Positions 16,719 to 39,415 of a stretch of 64,000 bases of DNA are shown in pieces (position 1 is the first letter of the stretch; each line of letters opens with the position of its first letter). Made by a program: the position numbers and the translations under genes. The notes below the pieces were generated by a model. That model was not told the origin of the DNA and made no database searches. It saw nothing but the letters and a program-made list of their open reading frames with translations. The DNA is taken from positions 1 to 64,000 of the IMG/VR virus record IMGVR_UViG_3300033072_000537. One strand, given 5' to 3'. Source of the DNA: a virus. Its lineage: Duplodnaviria > Caudoviricetes.

Positions 16719-17003
16719 GTCGCGCTGCGGGGCGGGCGGGGGCGGTGGGGACTCCGCCCGCTGTTTCCTGGCGTAAAACAGCTGCTCCGCAAGTGCGCGC
16801 AGTTCGTCAGCTGCGGCCTTGCCGCGGATGTCCGCGACGCCCCGGTGTTTCTTGCCGGCGCCATCGGTGTAGCCGTACAGGAAGCGATTGCGATGGTCGC
16901 GACTCGGCATGGCGAGCAGGGCGCGGGCTTCGCACTCGGCTCGCCAAGCCTCTCCCCAGGTATCAACCGGCTGGCCGGTGAGTTCGGAGATGGCTACTGG
17001 CAT
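16704..17003 (-). CDS. Hypothetical phage protein
   Basis: 99 aa; EAWRAECEAR motif; overlaps the MTase stop. Confidence 0.65.
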   Translation of the reverse strand: MPVAISELTGQPVDTWGEAWRAECEARALLAMPSRDHRNRFLYGYTDGAGKKHRGVADIRGKAAADELRALAEQLFYARKQRAESPPPPPAPQRDLFAA

Positions 17004-19336
17004 GGTCGCTTGATCGCTGCGTCAATGCGTTGCCCGATCCAGCGCACATTCGGCACGGCCCAGCTATTGCCGAGCGCCTTATAGCGCGGGCCGTCTGGGC
17101 ATTCGCTGACGGGCTTCTTGCGCCAGGGGATCATCGTGTAGCCGTGCGACACCTCAACGCTTAAGGCGTATGAACTCGCGGCCCGCGTTTCCTCTGGAAT
17201 GAACAAACTTATGGCAGTCGAAACACAGCAGAGCAAGGTTTGAAGGATCGAGTCGTAGTTCTGGGAATTTCGCCCAGCTTCCGATGTGATGGACTTCATG
17301 CAGCTTTTCACCGCGCTGGTGAATTTTTCCGCATCGCTGGCAAGTTCTTCGATCTCTTGCCCAGACTGACTGGCAAACAAGTTTCCAATCAGTAGAGGAA
17401 AAGAACCGCTGGTGTTCAGACGTGATTCCGCCCTTCCATGCGGGGCTTTTTTCTCCAACCATGTGAGCAGCGCGGCACTCAACTGAACAAAATCGGCGGC
17501 TTGAATAGGTAGGCGACACCATTCGCTCGCGTCCGCAATGCTCGCAGACAAGAGCAACTTTCCTTGACTGTGTAGCTGAAGATGCTGCCGCTCTAAGTCG
17601 ATCTGCGCATTGACGAGAACAGGTGCGTTTGAGCTTGCCTGGCCGACATTCAAATTCAGTTCCGCAGCATTCGCATTTGACGGAAACACGTTTTCTTCGG
17701 CAGGCGAGGCATTGCTTTGCGACTTGTGAGACTGGAGCGCCGCAAGCACATTTGTGCTTGGCTGGTCGGACGACCATACATTCGAATTACTGTGTTGGAA
17801 AACAGTAATTGTACAAGTTTTTACTATTTCGGGAAACCCCTGAAGTCGTTCGCACTCGACCGGGGTTAGGCGGCGGACTTGCATGGCTGCGTTGATAATT
17901 GGATTGCCTCGACCAGTTCCATCTTCCTCTGCTGCTGACCGCGTAGTGAGCGCGTGAGTCCGATCTCCGGTTGCGCAAACAACCGGAGCCAACACATGCG
18001 CCTTATCCCCGCCTCCGCCGCTTGCCCGCAGGCAGTTGCCAACCTCGTCGCCAAGCTCGGCGGTTGCGCCGCCTTCTCTGCCACGGAGGGAGACGGCCAC
18101 CGCTACCTGCCCGCCAGCGTTCGCGTGGCTGCCGTCATGCCCCATGCTGCGCAGCGTCGGGGCGATAGGACCAGCATCGCCGCCGTGGTCTTTGCAGGAG
18201 AAGGCGATGGCGTTCTCACCGCCATTGTTTCGGCCCAGCGCAAAGGCGGTGTCGGTGCTGACGCATGGGTCTTGGGTGCCGTGGACGCAAACAAGCGACT
18301 CGCCGCCGTTGCCGGTGTCGCCGCCTTTGGCGCGCAGCGGGTCAGATACATCGACCTCTTGCAGAGCCCCGAAGTGGCCGACGTTGGCATACGCCGCAAT
18401 CGGCGCCTCATGGTTGCAGGTCAGCGTCGGGCCTCGGTCAAAGCCGATTTTCGCGCCGCCTTGGCCGTGGGCCATGGTGATGACCGGCTGCTGCACCACA
18501 GTCGTGCTGCTGTTGTCGATGTTACCTGGCGTCCTCGCACGAAGGCATTGAGCCAACTCGTCGTAGCTCGCCACCTTCTGAACGGTCGGGTCGGTGCCGT
18601 GGATAGTTACGCCGCTTGGGCTACCGCCCTCAGCGCCTGCTCCAGCGCCACCGGCAGCTCCTTCCCCCGTTTCTCGGCTCGGCGCAGTATCCCGGCGCAT
18701 GCCGTCGAACTCAAAAAGTACCGCTGCGGGATCGAACCCCTCTCGAGCACTTGCGACAACGAACACACGGCGGCGTCGTTGGGCCACTCCGAAATATTGG
18801 GCGTCTGTGACCCGCCACGCGACTGCTCTTTTGGGGCCAAGCACATAACCAGCGTTCGTCCATTTCCCCCCTGGCGCGACGAGCGGGTCATCTTCGCCGG
18901 CAAGTCCAGCAAGGAAGCAGCCGAAGGCGTTATCAGAGGTGGAGAGGACTCCGGGGACGTTTTCCCAGAAGACGATACAGGGCTGCTCTCCGCGAGCAAG
19001 TCGAGCTGAGTCCAGTTCATTGGCTATTTCACAGAATACAAGGGAAAGGTTGCCGCGGGCGTCATCCAAAGATCGACGAAGGCCCGCTACAGAAAATGCC
19101 TGGCAAGGCGTGCCACCGCAGAACACGTCCGGGGCCTCTACTTCTCCACTGCGGATCAAATCCGGCAGTTTTGTCATGTCGCCCAGGTTGGGAACGCTAG
19201 GGTAATGGTGCGCAAGTACAGCGCTTGGAAACGGCTCGATCTCGGAGAACCAGGCTGCTTTCCACCCAAGGGGTTCCCAAGCAACGCTTGCCGCTTCGAT
19301 GCCGCTGCATACGCTTCCGAATTTGATGTCTTCCAT
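16994..19336 (-). CDS. DNA (cytosine-5) methyltransferase carrying a 228-codon in-frame insertion
   Basis: Motifs SVCSGIEA (I), GGTPCQAFS (IV), WENVPG (VI), QRRRRVF (VIII), RRLTPVECERLQGFP (IX), RYKALGNSWAVP (X). Confidence 0.92.
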   Translation of the reverse strand: MEDIKFGSVCSGIEAASVAWEPLGWKAAWFSEIEPFPSAVLAHHYPSVPNLGDMTKLPDLIRSGEVEAPDVFCGGTPCQAFSVAGLRRSLDDARGNLSLVFCEIANELDSARLARGEQPCIVFWENVPGVLSTSDNAFGCFLAGLAGEDDPLVAPGGKWTNAGYVLGPKRAVAWRVTDAQYFGVAQRRRRVFVVASAREGFDPAAVLFEFDGMRRDTAPSRETGEGAAGGAGAGAEGGSPSGVTIHGTDPTVQKVASYDELAQCLRARTPGNIDNSSTTVVQQPVITMAHGQGGAKIGFDRGPTLTCNHEAPIAAYANVGHFGALQEVDVSDPLRAKGGDTGNGGESLVCVHGTQDPCVSTDTAFALGRNNGGENAIAFSCKDHGGDAGPIAPTLRSMGHDGSHANAGGQVAVAVSLRGREGGATAELGDEVGNCLRASGGGGDKAHVLAPVVCATGDRTHALTTRSAAEEDGTGRGNPIINAAMQVRRLTPVECERLQGFPEIVKTCTITVFQHSNSNVWSSDQPSTNVLAALQSHKSQSNASPAEENVFPSNANAAELNLNVGQASSNAPVLVNAQIDLERQHLQLHSQGKLLLSASIADASEWCRLPIQAADFVQLSAALLTWLEKKAPHGRAESRLNTSGSFPLLIGNLFASQSGQEIEELASDAEKFTSAVKSCMKSITSEAGRNSQNYDSILQTLLCCVSTAISLFIPEETRAASSYALSVEVSHGYTMIPWRKKPVSECPDGPRYKALGNSWAVPNVRWIGQRIDAAIKRPCQ
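17145..17828 (-). mobile_element. 684-bp homing-endonuclease insertion inside the MTase
   Basis: Removal joins CCC GA|C GGC TAC and restores QGFPDGYT; length is a multiple of 3; visibly more AT-rich than the flanks. Confidence 0.8.
17154..17777 (-). CDS. HNH endonuclease with N-terminal zinc-ribbon repeats, nested in the MTase (-1 frame)
   Basis: CQRCG...HEVHHI...SNLALLCFDCHKFVH; CECCG..CSRQC, CEHCG..FCSVEC; GEKSPAWKGG. Confidence 0.88.
   Translation of the reverse strand: MVVRPAKHKCACGAPVSQVAKQCLACRRKRVSVKCECCGTEFECRPGKLKRTCSRQCADRLRAAASSATQSRKVALVCEHCGRERMVSPTYSSRRFCSVECRAAHMVGEKSPAWKGGITSEHQRFFSSTDWKLVCQSVWARDRRTCQRCGKIHQRGEKLHEVHHIGSWAKFPELRLDPSNLALLCFDCHKFVHSRGNAGREFIRLKR
18607..19020 (-). 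CDS. Nested alternative-frame ORF, putative MTase beta-type subunit
   Basis: C-terminal CSLSQVLERGSIPQRYFLSSTACAGILRRAEKRGKELP recalls the alternative-frame beta chain of M.EcoHK31I-type enzymes. Confidence 0.6.
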   Translation of the reverse strand: MNWTQLDLLAESSPVSSSGKTSPESSPPLITPSAASLLDLPAKMTRSSRQGGNGRTLVMCLAPKEQSRGGSQTPNISEWPNDAAVCSLSQVLERGSIPQRYFLSSTACAGILRRAEKRGKELPVALEQALRAVAQAA

Positions 19337-19419
19337 ACATCCTTTCTGAAATCACGACGTAATGAAATCGATGCCGGATTTTAACCTGAAAAGGGCAAGT
19401 AACAGCGGGAGTTATCGCG

Positions 19420-20529
19420 TCAAATAACGACAGTCACGCGCTCGGCCGCTCGGGTGATCCCCGTGTAGAGCCAGTTCATTCGGTTATCCCGGAATGACGA
19501 GCTCTCGTCGAACAGCATTACATTGTCCCACTGGGAGCCCTGGCTCTTATGCACCGTGACGGCGTAGCCGAAATCGAACTCGTCAAAGTTGCGGCGTGTG
19601 TACCAATCCAAGGTATCCTCGGTGCCGTCGAAAAACTGGCGCGGTACGGATACGAAGACGTCGGCGCTGCCAGCCGTGTAAGCGTCTGCCGGCGAGGCGG
19701 TGGCTGTGACAATTTGCAGGTCGTCCATCGGCACCAGGCTGACGTCACGAACTGACCAGATCGAGCCGTTGAGCAGGCCCTTATCCTTGTTGTTGCGCAG
19801 GCAGATGATGCGGTCGCCTTCGGTCGGCAGGTCGCCATGGAAGCCGTTGAGTTGGCGAAGCCGGGCATTGAAGCTGCGGCGCGTGCGGTTGAGTCCGACC
19901 AGAACCTGGTCGGCGGCCAGTACGTTGCCCTGCATTACATCGGCGCGACGGATCACCTGGCTATCGCCGTATATCCCGAGCTGGAGCTTGCGCCCCTCGC
20001 GGACCTCCATGCTCATGCGGATGATTGGATTATCGGCAGCCTGGCGGTGAATCTCGGTCAGGATCACATCGGGCTCGTCCATGATGAAAAAGCCCTGTCC
20101 CTTGACCGGCGGCAGCTGTGCCGGATCACCGAGCACCAGAACCTTGATGCCAAACGACAGGAGGTCTTTCCCGAGTGCCTCATCGACCATTGAGCACTCG
20201 TCGATGATGATCAGCTTGGCCGTGCGGACGTCGCTGTCGCGGTTCAGGATGAATTTCGGTTTGCCGCCGCCGCTGTCGTCCAGCTTGTAGATCATGCTGT
20301 GGATCGTACTGGCGTTGTCGCAGCCCTTAGATTTCAGGACGAGCGCTGCCTTGCCGGTGAAGGCGCCGAAAATAACCTTGCCGCCAGCGCTGGCTGCGAT
20401 TTCCTTGGCGATGGTGGTTTTCCCGGTTCCTGCGTAGCCGAACAGACGAAATACCTGCTTGCCGCGTTTTTCTTTCAGCCAGGCCGATACTGCTTTAAGT
20501 GCCTGCTCTTGCTGTGGTGACCATGACAT
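19420..20529 (-). CDS. RecD/Dda-like SF1 helicase
   Basis: GYAGTGKT, IIIDECSM, LGDPAQLPPV, HRQA, YAVTVHKSQGSQW, LYTGITRA. Confidence 0.9.
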   Translation of the reverse strand: MSWSPQQEQALKAVSAWLKEKRGKQVFRLFGYAGTGKTTIAKEIAASAGGKVIFGAFTGKAALVLKSKGCDNASTIHSMIYKLDDSGGGKPKFILNRDSDVRTAKLIIIDECSMVDEALGKDLLSFGIKVLVLGDPAQLPPVKGQGFFIMDEPDVILTEIHRQAADNPIIRMSMEVREGRKLQLGIYGDSQVIRRADVMQGNVLAADQVLVGLNRTRRSFNARLRQLNGFHGDLPTEGDRIICLRNNKDKGLLNGSIWSVRDVSLVPMDDLQIVTATASPADAYTAGSADVFVSVPRQFFDGTEDTLDWYTRRNFDEFDFGYAVTVHKSQGSQWDNVMLFDESSSFRDNRMNWLYTGITRAAERVTVVI

Positions 20530-20572
20530 AAATATCCCTTCGGGGCGGCGCGGGGGAAACGCCGCCAAAAAA

Positions 20573-36003: not shown

Positions 36004-36431
36004 GCGAAACCAAAGTTGTTGTTCCGAGCGTCCTCCTGGAGCTCTCGCGCCAGGGGGCGACCGGCTTCCGCGTCAATACCGGTACCGGATGGATCGGCAC
36101 CGGTAAGCCGGTCCGTATCACGAAGCCGATGACGGTCACGCTCCGCCCTGGTGACGTGGTCCTGCGTGGCCCGGTCCGCCCCCTGAATGCCGGCCTGGTC
36201 AAGGGCGGTAGCGACATCATCGGCTGGGACCAGGTTGTCATCACCCCGGACATGGTCGGCAAGACCATCGCGCAATTCCTGGCTATTGAGTGCAAGGACG
36301 GCAAGGGCCGGCTGTCCGACGAGCAGCGAATCTTTATCAACAATGTCCGTGCAGCGGGTGGCAAGGCCGGCGTCGCATACTGCGCCGATGATGCACGGGA
36401 CATCCTGAAAGGTCACAATATTTCCCCGTAG
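36000..36431 (+). CDS. VRR-NUC domain nuclease
   Basis: FRVNTG, GGSDIIG, FLAIECK..KGRLSDEQ.IF, GGKAGV. Confidence 0.85.
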   Translation: MSETKVVVPSVLLELSRQGATGFRVNTGTGWIGTGKPVRITKPMTVTLRPGDVVLRGPVRPLNAGLVKGGSDIIGWDQVVITPDMVGKTIAQFLAIECKDGKGRLSDEQRIFINNVRAAGGKAGVAYCADDARDILKGHNISP

Positions 36432-36433
36432 TA

Positions 36434-36454
36434 TTATCCTGTTTTGGTTATAAT
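36434..36454 (+). promoter_or_regulatory. Operator-like palindrome and TATAAT box before the primase
   Basis: TTATCCTGTTTTGGTTAT overlapping TATAAT. Confidence 0.55.
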
Positions 36455-36511
36455 CACCGAAAACTAAGCGGCGCAGACCGCATATATGACTTTCACCGCC
36501 TGGGTAAATAT

Positions 36512-39415
36512 ATGAAGAACAACGAGCTAACGCTCGATGCTGTGAGGGAAGCGCTTTCTTTTATTCCTGCCGATGACCGCGACATCTGGGTCAAAATGGC
36601 GATGGCCCTCAAGGATGAGTACGGAGACGAGGCCAAGGACGCCTGGCTCGACTGGTCGTCCACTGCGCTGAACTACAACGCTTCGTCGGCTGATCACGTC
36701 TGGAAATCCGTGTCATCCGGCAAGGTCACCATTGCCAGTCTGATCTACGAAGCCAAGCAGTTCGGCTGGAAGCCGCGCGCAAGTCATCAGCGCCGAGTCA
36801 CGCCCGAGGAGTACGCCCGCAAGCAGGCTGAACGCGAGCGCCGACGTGCTGAGGAGGTTGCCGAGGAGCGCGCAAAGGCCGAGCGTGCAGCCAAGCGTGC
36901 CGCCGATATGTGGGAGAAGGCAGAGCCCGCCGCTGACCATCCGTACCTGGCTCGCAAGGGCATCCAGCCCCATGGCACTCGCCTGCTGCCGATCTGGGAA
37001 CGCCGGCACACCGACACTGAGACAGGCGAGGTCACTACCGTGTCGGTGCTCAATGTGCTGCTGGTGCCGATCTATTCAGGCCCCAAGGCCATTGCCAGCC
37101 TGCAAGCGATTTTCGCCGCGACCGACCCAACCCTTGATCGCGACAAGGACTATCTGCCTGGTGGGCACAAGCAAGGCTGCTACTACACCATCGGCGCCAT
37201 CACCCGCTCGACGCTGCGCGTGATCTTCTGCGAAGGCTTCGCGACTGGTGCCAGCATCCACGAGGCGACCGGCTGCCCGGTGGTTGTCTGCTTCGACGCC
37301 GGAAATCTTCAGCCGGTGGCCGAGGCAGTCCGCGCAAAGCTGCCCGACGTCGAGATCATCATTGCCGGGGATAACGACCTCTGGACCAAGAACAACCCGG
37401 GCGCTCGCAAGGCAAATGCCGCCGCGTGGGCGGTACAGGGTCGCGTTGCTCTGCCAATTTTCGAGGATTACACTAGCGAGCCGACGGACTTTAATGACCT
37501 GCGCGACGCCGATGCTATCCGCGCACAGGTCGATCAGGCCGTCAGCCCGCAAGACCCTGAGCACTACACCCCCGAATGCCGCTGGGTTCCCCCTGACCAG
37601 CCGGCATCGCCCCAGCCGGAGGTGGGCAACAACGAGGTTGATGCTGCCTCGCAAAACGCCGGCAGCGGGAGCCCTGGACAATCCTTTCCTGGGGCCGAAC
37701 CCGCCGTGCAGGACTCCCCGCCGGGCCAGGCTGCGCCAACAGCCCCCGGCGGGGCGCACGATGACGACGACGACCACGACGCGTCCGGCTACTTCACTAT
37801 CAAGGGCTACGACCACGACCGCTATTTTGTGTTCCAGCACGAGCGCAAGCAGCTGGCTGTCTATACCGCTGGCAGTTTCACGGATTCTGGCTTCATCGCG
37901 CTGGCACCGCTGCAATTCTGGGAGATCGAATTCCCGGCAGACTCAGGGTTCAACAAGCGCGCGGCCCTCAACTGGTTCATCCGACTCGCGCACCGCCGCG
38001 GCATCTTCGACCCCAGTCATACCCGAGGTCGTGGTGCCTGGGTGGATCGGGGGCGGATTGTTCTTCACCTGGGCAACGAACTGGTTGTTGACGGCGAGGT
38101 TACGCCGATAACGAAATTCGAGAGCCGCTACGTCTATGAGCTTGACCGCTCACTGCCGCCGCTGTCTGCGAGTGCGCTCGGGTCCGATGAGGGCGAGGAG
38201 CTGCTCGAGCTCGCGGGCCTGTTCCGCTGGACCAAACCGGCCAGTGCGCCCATGCTCGCCGGCTGGTGCGCGCTGGCTCCGCTCTGCGGTGCGCTCCGTT
38301 GGCGTCCGCATATTTGGCTCACGGGTGGAGCTGGTTGCGGCAAATCTAGTATTCTGAACGGATTCGTCCACGTCCTGATGAACGGCATGGACATTTTCGC
38401 CCAAGGCAACTCGACCGAGGCCGGCATCCGGCAGACCCTGCGGCAGGACGCGCTGCCTGTGCTGTTCGACGAGTCCGAGACGAACAACGACCGCGAGAAA
38501 ATGCGCGTCGATGGCGTCCTGGCGATGATCCGGCAGGCCTCAACCGAGTCGGCGGCGCGTACCCTCAAGGGCAGCGCAAGCGGCGACGCCATGGCCTTCC
38601 ACATCCGGTCCATGTTCTGCCTGGCGTCGATCATGGTCGGCATGGAGAAGCAGGCCGACTACGAGCGCCTCGCCGTGCTGGCCCTGCGCCCGAAGCACGA
38701 CAACCCGACCGCAGCGGCCGAGTCCTGGGAGCGCATCAAGAACCGGCTGTATGACCTCGGGCGCGACGAGGATTTACCGGCCCGGCTATTCCGCCGCTCG
38801 CTCAACCTGCTGCCGATCACGCTCAAGAACATCGAGGTGTTCGCTTCAGCTGGGGCCAAGAAGTTCGGCAGCCAGCGCGACGGCGACCAGTACGGGACGC
38901 TCATGGCCGGGGCCTGGAGCCTGATCTCCGACCGCGTCGCAAGCGAAGACGAAGCCATGGAGATGCTCAACCGCTACGAGTGGAACGAGCACATGGAGTA
39001 TGCGGATGCTGACGAGTCCATGCGGGCGCTGCACGCCGTCATGGAGGCCCGGATTCGCCTGCAAGGCGGGCAGGAGTTGGCCGTGCATGAGATCGTCGAG
39101 CTTGCCAAAAATCGCATCGTCGAGGGCGTCGAGATCAGCGCATCGCTGGCCGATACGATCCTGCAGCGCTACGGCATGCGGGTCAGAGATGATTACCTGC
39201 TGTTCTCAAACTCCAGCACTGCGCTCCGCGGCCTTGTGCATGGCAGCTCGTTCGAGTCCGATCTGCGCGGCCACCTGCTGCGCGTTCCAGGAGCCTCCAG
39301 GTTCGACAATCGGCCGGTCAAAATCGGCCCGGCGGTGTCCAAGTGCGTGGCGATTCCGCTGAACCTGATCATTCACGATGACCCGATTATGGGTGACGAC
39401 GACCGCCCATTCTGA
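36512..39415 (+). CDS. Primase-helicase (PriCT-2, Toprim and P-loop helicase domains)
   Basis: ALSFIPADDRDIWVKMAMALK, HPYL.RKGI, CEGFATG, FDAGNL, AGDND, TDFND, GGAGCGKS, VLFDESE. Confidence 0.9.
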   Translation: MKNNELTLDAVREALSFIPADDRDIWVKMAMALKDEYGDEAKDAWLDWSSTALNYNASSADHVWKSVSSGKVTIASLIYEAKQFGWKPRASHQRRVTPEEYARKQAERERRRAEEVAEERAKAERAAKRAADMWEKAEPAADHPYLARKGIQPHGTRLLPIWERRHTDTETGEVTTVSVLNVLLVPIYSGPKAIASLQAIFAATDPTLDRDKDYLPGGHKQGCYYTIGAITRSTLRVIFCEGFATGASIHEATGCPVVVCFDAGNLQPVAEAVRAKLPDVEIIIAGDNDLWTKNNPGARKANAAAWAVQGRVALPIFEDYTSEPTDFNDLRDADAIRAQVDQAVSPQDPEHYTPECRWVPPDQPASPQPEVGNNEVDAASQNAGSGSPGQSFPGAEPAVQDSPPGQAAPTAPGGAHDDDDDHDASGYFTIKGYDHDRYFVFQHERKQLAVYTAGSFTDSGFIALAPLQFWEIEFPADSGFNKRAALNWFIRLAHRRGIFDPSHTRGRGAWVDRGRIVLHLGNELVVDGEVTPITKFESRYVYELDRSLPPLSASALGSDEGEELLELAGLFRWTKPASAPMLAGWCALAPLCGALRWRPHIWLTGGAGCGKSSILNGFVHVLMNGMDIFAQGNSTEAGIRQTLRQDALPVLFDESETNNDREKMRVDGVLAMIRQASTESAARTLKGSASGDAMAFHIRSMFCLASIMVGMEKQADYERLAVLALRPKHDNPTAAAESWERIKNRLYDLGRDEDLPARLFRRSLNLLPITLKNIEVFASAGAKKFGSQRDGDQYGTLMAGAWSLISDRVASEDEAMEMLNRYEWNEHMEYADADESMRALHAVMEARIRLQGGQELAVHEIVELAKNRIVEGVEISASLADTILQRYGMRVRDDYLLFSNSSTALRGLVHGSSFESDLRGHLLRVPGASRFDNRPVKIGPAVSKCVAIPLNLIIHDDPIMGDDDRPF

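What the first reader, a model, noticed from the sequence alone, without database searches (positions are those of the whole stretch)
17145..17828. Splicing-free 'stealth' homing endonuclease: an HNH gene inserted in a methyltransferase while the host frame stays open
Seen: between MTase motifs IX and X the sequence reads CCC GA|A ATA ... TCG CA|C GGC TAC. Deleting 684 bp restores QGFP-D-GYT. The insert is a 51-nt leader, a complete 624-nt HNH ORF in the -1 frame and 9 trailing nt. All 228 codons are also stop-free in the MTase frame; a naive (61/64)^228 estimate is about 2e-5. There is no room for a group I/II intron core outside the ORF, and no intein ends (no Cys/Ser start, no His-Asn plus Cys/Ser/Thr end). 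In the MTase frame the insert starts IVKTCTITV and ends YALSVEV, two beta-strand-like segments around Ser/Asn/Ala-rich filler. Inference: this is a mobile element that avoids killing its host gene by dual-frame coding, with the terminal strands pairing so the filler loops out of the folded enzyme. That would be a third strategy alongside introns and inteins.
Basis: partly seen in the sequence, partly recalled or inferred. Interest (0 to 1): 0.92.

Follow-up and report, generated by a model that had tools for sequence, protein, structure and literature searches.

The report
Hidden HNH gene inside methyltransferase gene
A selfish HNH nuclease gene sits out of frame inside a phage DNA cytosine-methyltransferase gene whose own frame is kept stop-free, so the enzyme is probably translated straight through it; the trick was published in 2023-2025 for mycobacteriophages, and this is a new, widespread lineage.

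Summary
A 684-nt insert (17145-17828, minus strand) lies between motifs IX and X of a C5 methyltransferase. It holds a complete 207-aa HNH gene in the -1 frame, and the methyltransferase frame has no stop.

This copy alone is weak evidence: the chance of an open frame, given the HNH protein and its codons, is about 0.07, not 2e-5. The comparative evidence is strong.
- All 21 non-redundant relatives found through the HNH protein (GC 0.34-0.60) keep the host frame open as far as motif X. About 37 stops were expected and none was seen.
- Free-standing homologues have 2-15 stops in that frame.
- Synonymous codon choice is column-specific (z = 14.8).
- About 58 of 60 close methyltransferase relatives are empty (QGFPDGYT).
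- Insert and host similarities disagree in both directions, as expected for a mobile element.
- No intron or intein signature was found.

The kind is already published as the ShiLan domain (PMC9957025, PMC11855218), and this scan has met it on other DNA. It is therefore a new member, not a new strategy.

One point appears new. Most relatives carry a sigma-70 -10 box, often TGn-extended, exactly 6 nt before the HNH start codon. That suggests a leaderless mRNA. In this window the box lies 30 nt upstream.

The parts
16994..19336 (-). Whole C5 DNA-cytosine methyltransferase reading frame, 780 aa, read through the insert
   Evidence: ORF list. PF00145 at 1.4e-28 and phrog_116 at 1.5e-81. 93 protein clusters share the same architecture.
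17829..19336 (-). Methyltransferase part upstream of the insert: motifs I-VIII, the variable region and motif IX, ending in QGFP
   Evidence: Translation. AF2 pLDDT is above 90 for residues 1-210 and about 490-505. 78 relatives were found in IMG/VR.
17145..17828 (-). 684-nt mobile insert (228 codons) with lower GC (0.51)
   Evidence: Its exact removal restores the empty-allele reading QGFPDGYT.
17154..17777 (-). HNH endonuclease gene: 207 aa plus stop, three zinc-ribbon-like CxxC repeats followed by the HNH motif, in the -1 frame relative to the methyltransferase
   Evidence: PF01844 at 3e-11; phrog_144 and phrog_1271. Alignment A1 with invariant Cys and His. PDB 5H0M at 6e-7.
17808..17813 (-). 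-10-like hexamer TACAAT, 30 nt upstream of the HNH ATG. It is homologous to the hexamer that lies 6 nt upstream of the start in most relatives.
   Evidence: L019 and L008 share the 30-nt spacing. In 19 short-leader loci T-12 is found in 18/19, A-11 in 17/19, T-7 in 18/19 and TG at -15/-14 in 11-12/19.
17801..17827 (-). Host-frame leader segment (IVKTCTITV), predicted beta strand
   Evidence: AF2 strand 505-513 and 13-22. The alternating hydrophobic pattern is seen in all loci.
17150..17176 (-). Host-frame tail segment (SSYALSVEV), predicted beta strand. It overlaps the last HNH codons and the HNH stop (TGA, 17154-17156).
   Evidence: AF2 strand 724-732, pLDDT 82-94, and 231-240. The pattern S-[YF]-x-[VIL]-x-[VIL] is conserved.
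16994..17144 (-). Methyltransferase part downstream of the insert: GYT..., motif X (GNS) and the stop
   Evidence: In frame and conserved in every filled allele examined. AF2 pLDDT 91-96.

Best explanation
This is a ShiLan-type 'hidden' homing element. A free-standing HNH homing-endonuclease gene has inserted exactly between the D and G codons of the conserved QGFP-D-GYT hinge between motifs IX and X of a phage C5 methyltransferase. The insert is a multiple of three in length, and selection keeps it free of stops in the host frame.

Ribosomes translating the methyltransferase therefore read straight through 228 extra codons. They add a near-neutral, partly folded extra module at a permissive surface site and then continue into motif X, so the enzyme stays whole without RNA or protein splicing (inferred).

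The HNH protein is made separately from its own start codon in the -1 frame. In most relatives a sigma-70 -10 box, often TGn-extended, sits exactly 6 nt upstream of that start codon, which would give a leaderless mRNA. In this window the box lies 30 nt upstream, which would give a short leader with no Shine-Dalgarno sequence (inferred).

The nuclease presumably cuts empty alleles at QGFPDGYT during co-infection, and repair copies the element in (inferred from the distribution, not shown).
For: Shown by tools:
1. The anatomy is as stated.
2. Searches seeded with the HNH protein cannot favour open host frames. They gave 24 loci, 21 of them non-redundant at under 80% identity, with HNH GC 0.34-0.60. 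In all of them the host frame is open through the HNH gene and reaches motif X.
3. Synonymous-codon shuffles expect 36.8 stops in total over the 21 loci; 0 were observed. The summed log10 P is -22.8.
4. Five free-standing homologues have 2-15 stops in the same frame.
5. 93 methyltransferase clusters at 90% identity carry the in-frame insert. Four distant ones, fetched as DNA, all hold an intact HNH gene.
6. Codon choice at invariant Cys and His columns is column-specific: TGT gives V where TGC gives A, and CAT gives I where CAC gives T. The statistic lies 14.8 sd above permutation and no one of 5000 permutations reached it, so host-frame residues are selected.
7. About 58 of 60 close methyltransferase relatives are empty and read QGFPD(G/N)YT.
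8. Insert and host identities disagree in both directions: 95% against 48% in one pair, 28% against 87% in another.
9. A different HNH (PF13392) sits in frame at the very same site in L092, so the site tolerates large insertions.
10. Two AF2 runs place the downstream segment (residues 733-781) at pLDDT above 90 and give the same secondary structure for the insert.
11. The conservation profile of the -10 box includes wobble positions of host codons at -12, -9 and -15, while wobble positions at -3 and -6 vary.
Against: - There is no transcript, protein or activity data. No RNA run holds the region.
- For this copy alone the open frame is only a roughly 7% event.
- Overall four-fold wobble identity in the HNH gene (0.436) is no higher than in the methyltransferase N-terminal control (0.466). 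Host-frame selection is therefore local, not general, and that control region may itself be dual-coded.
- AF2 confidence in the insert may partly echo covariation imposed by the HNH frame.
- In this window the -10-like hexamer is 30 nt from the ATG, the simple promoter scan calls nothing, and no Shine-Dalgarno sequence is visible.
- A few relatives have AGGA or GAGGA at the same place, which could act as a ribosome-binding site instead.
Confidence: 0.8

Rival explanations
1. The insert is removed at the RNA level by an unrecognised self-splicing or host-assisted intron, and the open host frame is incidental.
For: HNH genes commonly ride in phage group I introns (established knowledge). The insertion lies in a conserved motif of a conserved gene. 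Intron ORFs can overlap core helices.
Against: Rfam at permissive E-values finds no intron family in 16900-18100. Only 60 nt lie outside the ORF. The fold energy is ordinary, z = -1.35. The insert does not end in G. Splicing would remove any reason for 21 of 21 diverged copies to stay stop-free and in phase, or for host-frame residues to be fixed through wobble positions.
Confidence: 0.04
2. The insert is translated and then excised or clipped at the protein level, by a non-canonical intein or by proteolysis.
For: The frame is open, as for inteins. Predicted strands at both ends would bring the termini together.
Against: There is no Hint or intein domain in Pfam. The insert begins with I or V, not C, S or A. 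There is no His-Asn end. The next residue is G or H, not C, S or T, in all loci. Foldseek finds no related fold.
Confidence: 0.04
3. The methyltransferase is dead or works as two pieces (an N-terminal fragment plus a separately started C-terminal fragment of about 50 aa), and read-through does not matter.
For: Split C5 methyltransferases exist: M.AquI, and M.EcoHK31I (PMC2836561). Mycobacteriophage Dallas has a methylase in two genes next to an HNH gene. An in-frame ATG follows the insert in this window (GYT-M).
Against: Neither case would select against stops in the insert, yet none occurs in 21 diverged copies, including ones with GC 0.34-0.46 where P is 0.0003-0.007 each. Most relatives have no Met at that position. 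Motif X is intact and in phase everywhere.
Confidence: 0.04
4. The host-frame peptide is not merely tolerated. It has been recruited as a functional domain of the methyltransferase, for example for regulation or for keeping the enzyme off the element's own DNA. This is compatible with the main explanation.
For: Column-specific wobble selection fixes hydrophobic and acidic residues. Two AF2 runs reproduce a sheet-plus-helix model. The peptide is kept near neutral (mean charge -2) while the HNH protein is +17 to +36, through 53% A-ending Arg codons.
Against: Most close methyltransferases lack the insert and are otherwise alike. Two stretches, 521-571 and 633-662, are predicted disordered. There is no known fold. 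Selection for a soluble, non-disruptive loop would give the same signals.
Confidence: 0.15

Closest known systems
ShiLan domain: hidden out-of-frame HNH endonuclease in mycobacteriophage DNA methylases (Gosselin et al. 2023, PMC9957025; Arsenault, Gosselin and Gogarten 2025, PMC11855218)
   Same: An insertion in a phage DNA methylase at a conserved site. It has no stop in the host frame and carries a complete HNH gene with zinc-finger modules in the third (-1) frame. There is no intron or intein signature, the distribution is patchy and horizontally moving, and the host-frame peptide is predicted as a loop-out with a small helical core.
   Different: - A different HNH lineage: tblastn of our HNH finds no mycobacteriophage at E 1e-5.
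- 684 nt against 606 nt.
- ATG start after a 51-nt leader, against GTG 18 nt in.
- No similarity between the 5' end of the insert and the downstream flank.
- The site follows QGFP-D, before G. The ShiLan site is described as lying before a Pro.
- Hosts are Gram-negative-type phages and prophages from wastewater, freshwater and soil, not actinophages.
- The published work gives no test of selection on the open frame and only speculates about leaderless translation.
Pacc40 gp60 insertion, and the out-of-frame HNH noted in phage Applejack (PMC11855218; PMC12613952)
   Same: A second, independent example of an endonuclease ORF hidden out of frame in a methylase that reads through.
   Different: An unrelated methylase family and site, a 160-aa ORF with a less certain HNH assignment, and actinophage only.
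Escherichia phage BUCT618 methyltransferase (OM735461.1, CDS 36396-38258)
   Same: It has a 201-aa HNH ORF with the same zinc-ribbon-plus-HNH layout (about 30% identity), in the same relative frame, with 0 stops in the host frame.
   Different: The host gene is an N6/N4 methyltransferase (PF01555), not a C5 enzyme. No -10 box is seen before its ATG. The record does not annotate the HNH gene.
Homing endonuclease genes carried by group I introns or inteins, e.g. I-HmuI-type HNH in phage introns (established knowledge)
   Same: A selfish nuclease targets a conserved motif of a conserved gene and leaves the host gene functional.
   Different: Those rely on RNA or protein splicing. Here nothing is removed, and the cost is carried as an extra peptide.
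Free-standing homing endonuclease that splits its host gene, e.g. mobE in nrdA of Aeromonas phage Aeh1 (recalled from the literature, not checked here)
   Same: An HNH-type endonuclease gene without intron or intein sits inside a host gene that keeps working.
   Different: There the host gene becomes two polypeptides. Here it stays one chain.
Leaderless phage mRNAs such as lambda cI from PRM (established knowledge)
   Same: A -10 box is placed so that transcription starts at the A of the start codon.
   Different: Here the promoter lies inside another gene's coding sequence and is only inferred.

Membership tests
ShiLan-type hidden out-of-frame HNH insertion element | Insertion at a fixed, conserved site of a phage DNA methylase, with empty alleles among close relatives | tested here: met
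   About 58 of 60 IMG/VR relatives read QGFPD(G/N)YT without the insert. Removing 17145-17828 restores that reading.
ShiLan-type hidden out-of-frame HNH insertion element | Length a multiple of three and no stop in the host frame | tested here: met
   684 nt with 0 stops. The same holds in 24 of 24 HNH-seeded loci and in 4 of 4 methyltransferase-seeded loci.
ShiLan-type hidden out-of-frame HNH insertion element | Complete HNH endonuclease ORF in another frame of the same strand | tested here: met
   PF01844 at 3e-11. The HNH ORF is in frame +2 (= -1) relative to the methyltransferase.
ShiLan-type hidden out-of-frame HNH insertion element | No detectable intron or intein machinery | tested here: met
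   Rfam finds nothing. Fold z = -1.35. No Hint domain and no intein terminal residues.
ShiLan-type hidden out-of-frame HNH insertion element | Disjunct distribution: the insert's similarity is uncoupled from the host gene's | tested here: met
   Spearman correlation only 0.43. Pairs with 95% against 48%, and 28% against 87%.
ShiLan-type hidden out-of-frame HNH insertion element | Same HNH lineage and same site as the ShiLan element itself (needed only for calling it the same element, not the same kind) | tested here: not met
   tblastn against 50,697 phage records gives no Mycobacterium phage hit at E 1e-5. The published site and end features differ. The ShiLan sequence itself was not retrieved.
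HNH endonuclease (PF01844, His-Me finger) | HNH motif with catalytic His, Asn and metal-binding Cys/His | tested here: met
   The Pfam match covers the whole model, 1-47. Invariant H163, H164, N180, C185, C188, H189 and H193 in A1. PDB 5H0M at 6e-7.
HNH endonuclease (PF01844, His-Me finger) | Site-specific cleavage of the empty allele (homing activity) | not testable with these tools
   Needs a cleavage assay.
C5 DNA-cytosine methyltransferase (PF00145) | Motifs I, IV (PCQ), VI (ENV), VIII (QRR), IX and X in order in one frame | tested here: met
   Translation, Pfam, and columns nearly invariant across 93 sequences.
Group I or group II intron | Conserved ribozyme core; terminal G for group I or 5' GUGYG for group II | tested here: not met
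   No Rfam match at E up to 10. The insert starts AAUAG and ends GUCGCA.
Intein | Hint fold blocks, N-terminal Cys/Ser, C-terminal His-Asn, and Cys/Ser/Thr at +1 | tested here: not met
   No such residues in any of 21 loci. No Pfam hit. No fold match.
Sigma-70 promoter giving a leaderless mRNA | -10 hexamer TAnnnT 6-7 nt upstream of the start codon, optionally TGn-extended | tested here: inconclusive
   Met in most relatives: T-12 in 18/19, A-11 in 17/19, T-7 in 18/19, with 6-nt spacing. In this window the hexamer TACAAT lies 30 nt upstream. Transcript starts cannot be mapped here.

The most novel reading that the evidence does not exclude
The element is a fully self-contained overprinted homing cassette. 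It carries its own extended -10 promoter, written into the host protein's codons, that fires a leaderless HNH mRNA. Its second frame has evolved de novo into a folded, charge-balanced module that lets any C5 methyltransferase tolerate it. This would be a general, splicing-free vehicle for homing endonucleases that is widespread well beyond actinophages and can be tested in a coliphage (BUCT618).
Probability: 0.45. Interest if true: 0.65.

Novelty: new member of a known kind. Interest (0 to 1): 0.5.

Why it matters
Introns and inteins were long thought to be the only ways for a homing endonuclease to live inside an essential or useful gene. The read-through design was proposed only recently, from about ten mycobacteriophages and without any test of selection.

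This lineage shows four things:
- The design is common: at least 93 protein clusters, from wastewater, freshwater, soil and marine bacteria.
- It is actively maintained by selection in both frames.
- It targets the IX/X hinge of C5 methyltransferases.
- It may bring its own promoter.

It is also a clean natural case of long (over 200 codons) same-strand dual coding. The overprinted frame shows residue-level constraint, which is useful for studying how new protein sequence arises by overprinting. It also warns annotators, because gene callers report only the long methyltransferase ORF.

Tried and rejected
- **Host-frame peptide as search query.** A search of IMG/VR with the window's own host-frame insert peptide found nothing, because the patterns were too specific.
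- **Pfam and PHROGs on the host-frame insert.** No family was found.
- **Global test for raised wobble conservation.** No difference from the methyltransferase N-terminal control, 0.436 against 0.466. That control may be unsuitable, because it overlaps a nested ORF.
- **Constrained wobble columns and AF2 secondary structure.** 11 of 57 constrained columns lie in predicted elements, against 7 of 77 outside. The trend is suggestive but not significant.
- **Simple promoter scan of 16900-19500.** No site was called. The scan demands a -35 box.
- **Sequencing runs.** No RNA holder is listed. Contigs from four runs were laid on the region. DNA contigs bridge both junctions of the filled allele. One contig in run X4 joins 17104 to 17832 and may be an empty allele of a relative. 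Its alignment ends are loose, so I do not count it.
- **Foldseek of the insert model against the PDB.** No match below E 0.3.
- **Retrieving the ShiLan phage sequence for a direct alignment.** Not achieved. Mycobacteriophage Dallas, reached instead, has a split methylase plus a separate HNH gene.
- **tblastn with the BUCT618 HNH.** It found only itself.
Full report
**1. What is there**

The window is part of a 91.6-kb viral record, 99% complete by CheckV. On the minus strand, 16994..19336 is one open frame of 780 aa. It begins as an ordinary C5 DNA-cytosine methyltransferase (PF00145 at 1.4e-28; phrog_116 at 1.5e-81).

Nested in it, on the same strand but in the -1 frame, is a 207-aa ORF at 17154..17777. 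This ORF has three CxxC zinc-ribbon-like repeats and a full HNH motif (PF01844 at 3e-11, phrog_144 at 1e-17). Its nearest solved relative is the phage HNH endonuclease 5H0M.

Counts of stops in the insert, by frame:

| Frame | Stops |
|---|---|
| Methyltransferase frame | 0 |
| Third sense frame | 12 |
| Antisense frames | 7-9 |

Insert GC is 0.51, against 0.62 for the rest of the gene.

**2. Is the open frame more than chance?**

For this copy alone, hardly. I kept the HNH protein and its codon usage and shuffled synonymous codons. The methyltransferase frame stayed open in about 7% of trials. The naive figure of 2e-5 ignores that this frame rarely meets stops when the other frame codes for a Cys/Arg-rich protein.

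The relatives settle the matter.
- Searches seeded only with the HNH protein cannot prefer open host frames. They returned 24 loci from viral, genomic and metagenomic collections.
- 21 of these are non-redundant (under 80% HNH identity), with HNH GC from 0.34 to 0.60.
- In every one, the host frame is open across the HNH gene and runs on to motif X.
- The shuffles expect 36.8 stops in total over the 21 loci; none is seen. The summed log10 probability is -22.8, and single low-GC copies reach P = 0.0003-0.007.
- Five free-standing homologues from cultured phages have 2, 3, 5, 9 and 15 stops in that frame.
- A search with the host-frame peptide found 93 methyltransferase clusters at 90% identity with the same in-frame insert, at 24-100% identity.
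- Four of the most distant ones, fetched as DNA, all contain an intact HNH gene.

Both frames are therefore maintained.

**3. Is the host-frame peptide just filler?**

Host codon position 2 is the HNH wobble position. At invariant HNH Cys and His columns the synonymous codon is column-specific across genomes of very different GC.
- TGT, read as V in the host frame, dominates at three Cys columns.
- TGC, read as A, dominates at most of the other Cys columns.
- CAT, read as I, is used in 20 of 21 sequences at two His columns.
- CAC, read as T, dominates at another His column.

A permutation that keeps each sequence's codon usage never reaches the observed heterogeneity (z = 14.8, 0 of 5000).

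Arg codons end in A 53% of the time, which gives D or E in the host frame. This keeps the host-frame peptide near neutral (mean net charge -2) while the HNH protein is +17 to +36. It also explains the low GC of the insert.

Overall four-fold wobble identity is not raised, 0.436 against 0.466 in a control, so the constraint is local.

Two AlphaFold2 runs with independent alignments were made: the whole protein with 93 sequences, and the insert alone with 25 sequences. Both give the same layout:
- a strand at each end of the insert (505-513 and 724-732);
- a three-stranded sheet (574-600);
- helices at 614-631 and 692-711;
- two disordered stretches (521-571 and 633-662).

The flanking methyltransferase, including the segment after the insert, has pLDDT above 90. 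The fold matches nothing in the PDB.

Two caveats apply. The covariation that AlphaFold reads may partly come from the HNH frame. Pairing of the two terminal strands could not be read from the output.

**4. Mobility**

Of about 60 close methyltransferase relatives in IMG/VR, about 58 are empty and read QGFPD(G/N)YT. Deleting 17145-17828 from the window gives exactly that reading.

Similarity of the insert and of the N-terminal domain are poorly coupled (Spearman 0.43). There are pairs at 95% against 48%, and at 28% against 87%.

One relative, L092, carries a different HNH (PF13392) at the same site, in frame with the methyltransferase. The hinge between motifs IX and X is therefore both a favoured target and a permissive place.

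**5. Not an intron, not an intein**

- Rfam at E up to 10 finds no intron family.
- Only 60 nt lie outside the ORF.
- The RNA fold is ordinary, z = -1.35.
- The insert ends lack group I and group II terminal signatures.
- There is no Hint domain.
- In all loci the insert starts with I or V and is followed by G or H, not C, S or T.

**6. How the HNH may be expressed (inference, apparently new)**

In 19 relatives with a short leader, the six bases at -12 to -7 from the A of the start codon have the following profile:

| Position | Base | Share |
|---|---|---|
| -12 | T | 95% |
| -11 | A | 89% |
| -10 | T | 47% |
| -9 | A | 63% |
| -8 | A | 79% |
| -7 | T | 95% |

TG occupies -15/-14 in 11-12 of the 19, and T occupies -1 in 18 of 19. 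This is the known information profile of the sigma-70 -10 element (established knowledge), placed so that transcription would start at the A of ATG and give a leaderless mRNA.

The positions at -12, -9 and -15 are wobble positions of host codons. They are conserved while the encoded residue varies (A, V, C, L, Y). The wobble positions at -3 and -6 vary freely. This argues for a nucleotide-level signal.

It also explains much of the conserved 'leader strand': the motif A-I-I-x-V-C is GCTATAAT plus ATG read in the other frame.

In this window, and in its close relatives L019 and L008, the same hexamer (TACAAT, 17813-17808) lies 30 nt upstream of the ATG, because of a 24-nt addition. That would give a short leader without a Shine-Dalgarno sequence.

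A few relatives have AGGA or GAGGA there instead. The published work on ShiLan only speculated about leaderless translation.

**7. Relation to what is known**

The design was described as the ShiLan domain in mycobacteriophage methylases (PMC9957025; PMC11855218). A second case is Pacc40, and a genome note covers phage Applejack. All of this work is computational.

Our HNH has no mycobacteriophage hit at E 1e-5, and the site, leader and ends differ. It is therefore another lineage of the same kind.

Earlier notes of this scan report the same kind on other DNA.

A further lineage sits in an N6/N4 methyltransferase of the cultured coliphage BUCT618 and is not annotated there. It offers a bench system.

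**8. Verdict**

The mechanism of read-through dual coding is well supported by comparative evidence but untested at the bench. The claim that this is a new third strategy is already in print. This is a new member of a known kind and of moderate interest. What it adds is the selection tests, the wide distribution and the promoter inference.

Noticed in passing
window 18607-19020 (-): A 137-aa ORF lies in the third frame, nested in the methyltransferase N-terminal half (over motifs VI-VIII). It ends in a protein-like segment (...IPQRYFLS...GILRRA...). An equivalent open alternative-frame ORF of 164-186 aa with the same motif is present in L002/L003, L006 and (more diverged) L007. Only a weak PHROG hit was found (phrog_16143, E 0.0095). 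It recalls M.EcoHK31I, whose beta chain is encoded in another frame inside the alpha gene (PMC2836561). GC3 of the methyltransferase frame is oddly low here (0.57).
   Followed up: partly
L092:2737-4050 (IMGVR_UViG_3300045988_145686): A related methyltransferase carries a different HNH endonuclease (PF13392 HNH_3, 5e-16) at the same QGFP|GYT site, but in frame. The nuclease would be made as an internal domain of the methyltransferase, with no intein motifs.
   Followed up: partly
L113:1073-2935 (Escherichia phage BUCT618, OM735461.1 36396-38258): The annotated 'site-specific DNA-methyltransferase' (PF01555) hides an unannotated 201-aa out-of-frame HNH ORF (L113 1486-2091). The methyltransferase frame has 0 stops through it. 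This is a cultured coliphage in which the read-through model could be tested.
   Followed up: partly
L114 (Mycobacterium phage Dallas, MN062701.1 67989-69437): A homologous C5 methylase is annotated as two genes (gp118 of 280 aa and gp119 of 65 aa), followed by a separate HNH endonuclease gene (gp120). This is a split-gene solution next to an HNH gene, unlike the read-through solution.
   Followed up: no
window 19420-20568 (-) and L006:3129-4268: A PIF1/AAA_30-type helicase gene lies next to the methyltransferase both in this phage and in the Thalassospira prophage copy, so the neighbourhood is conserved beyond the methyltransferase.
   Followed up: no
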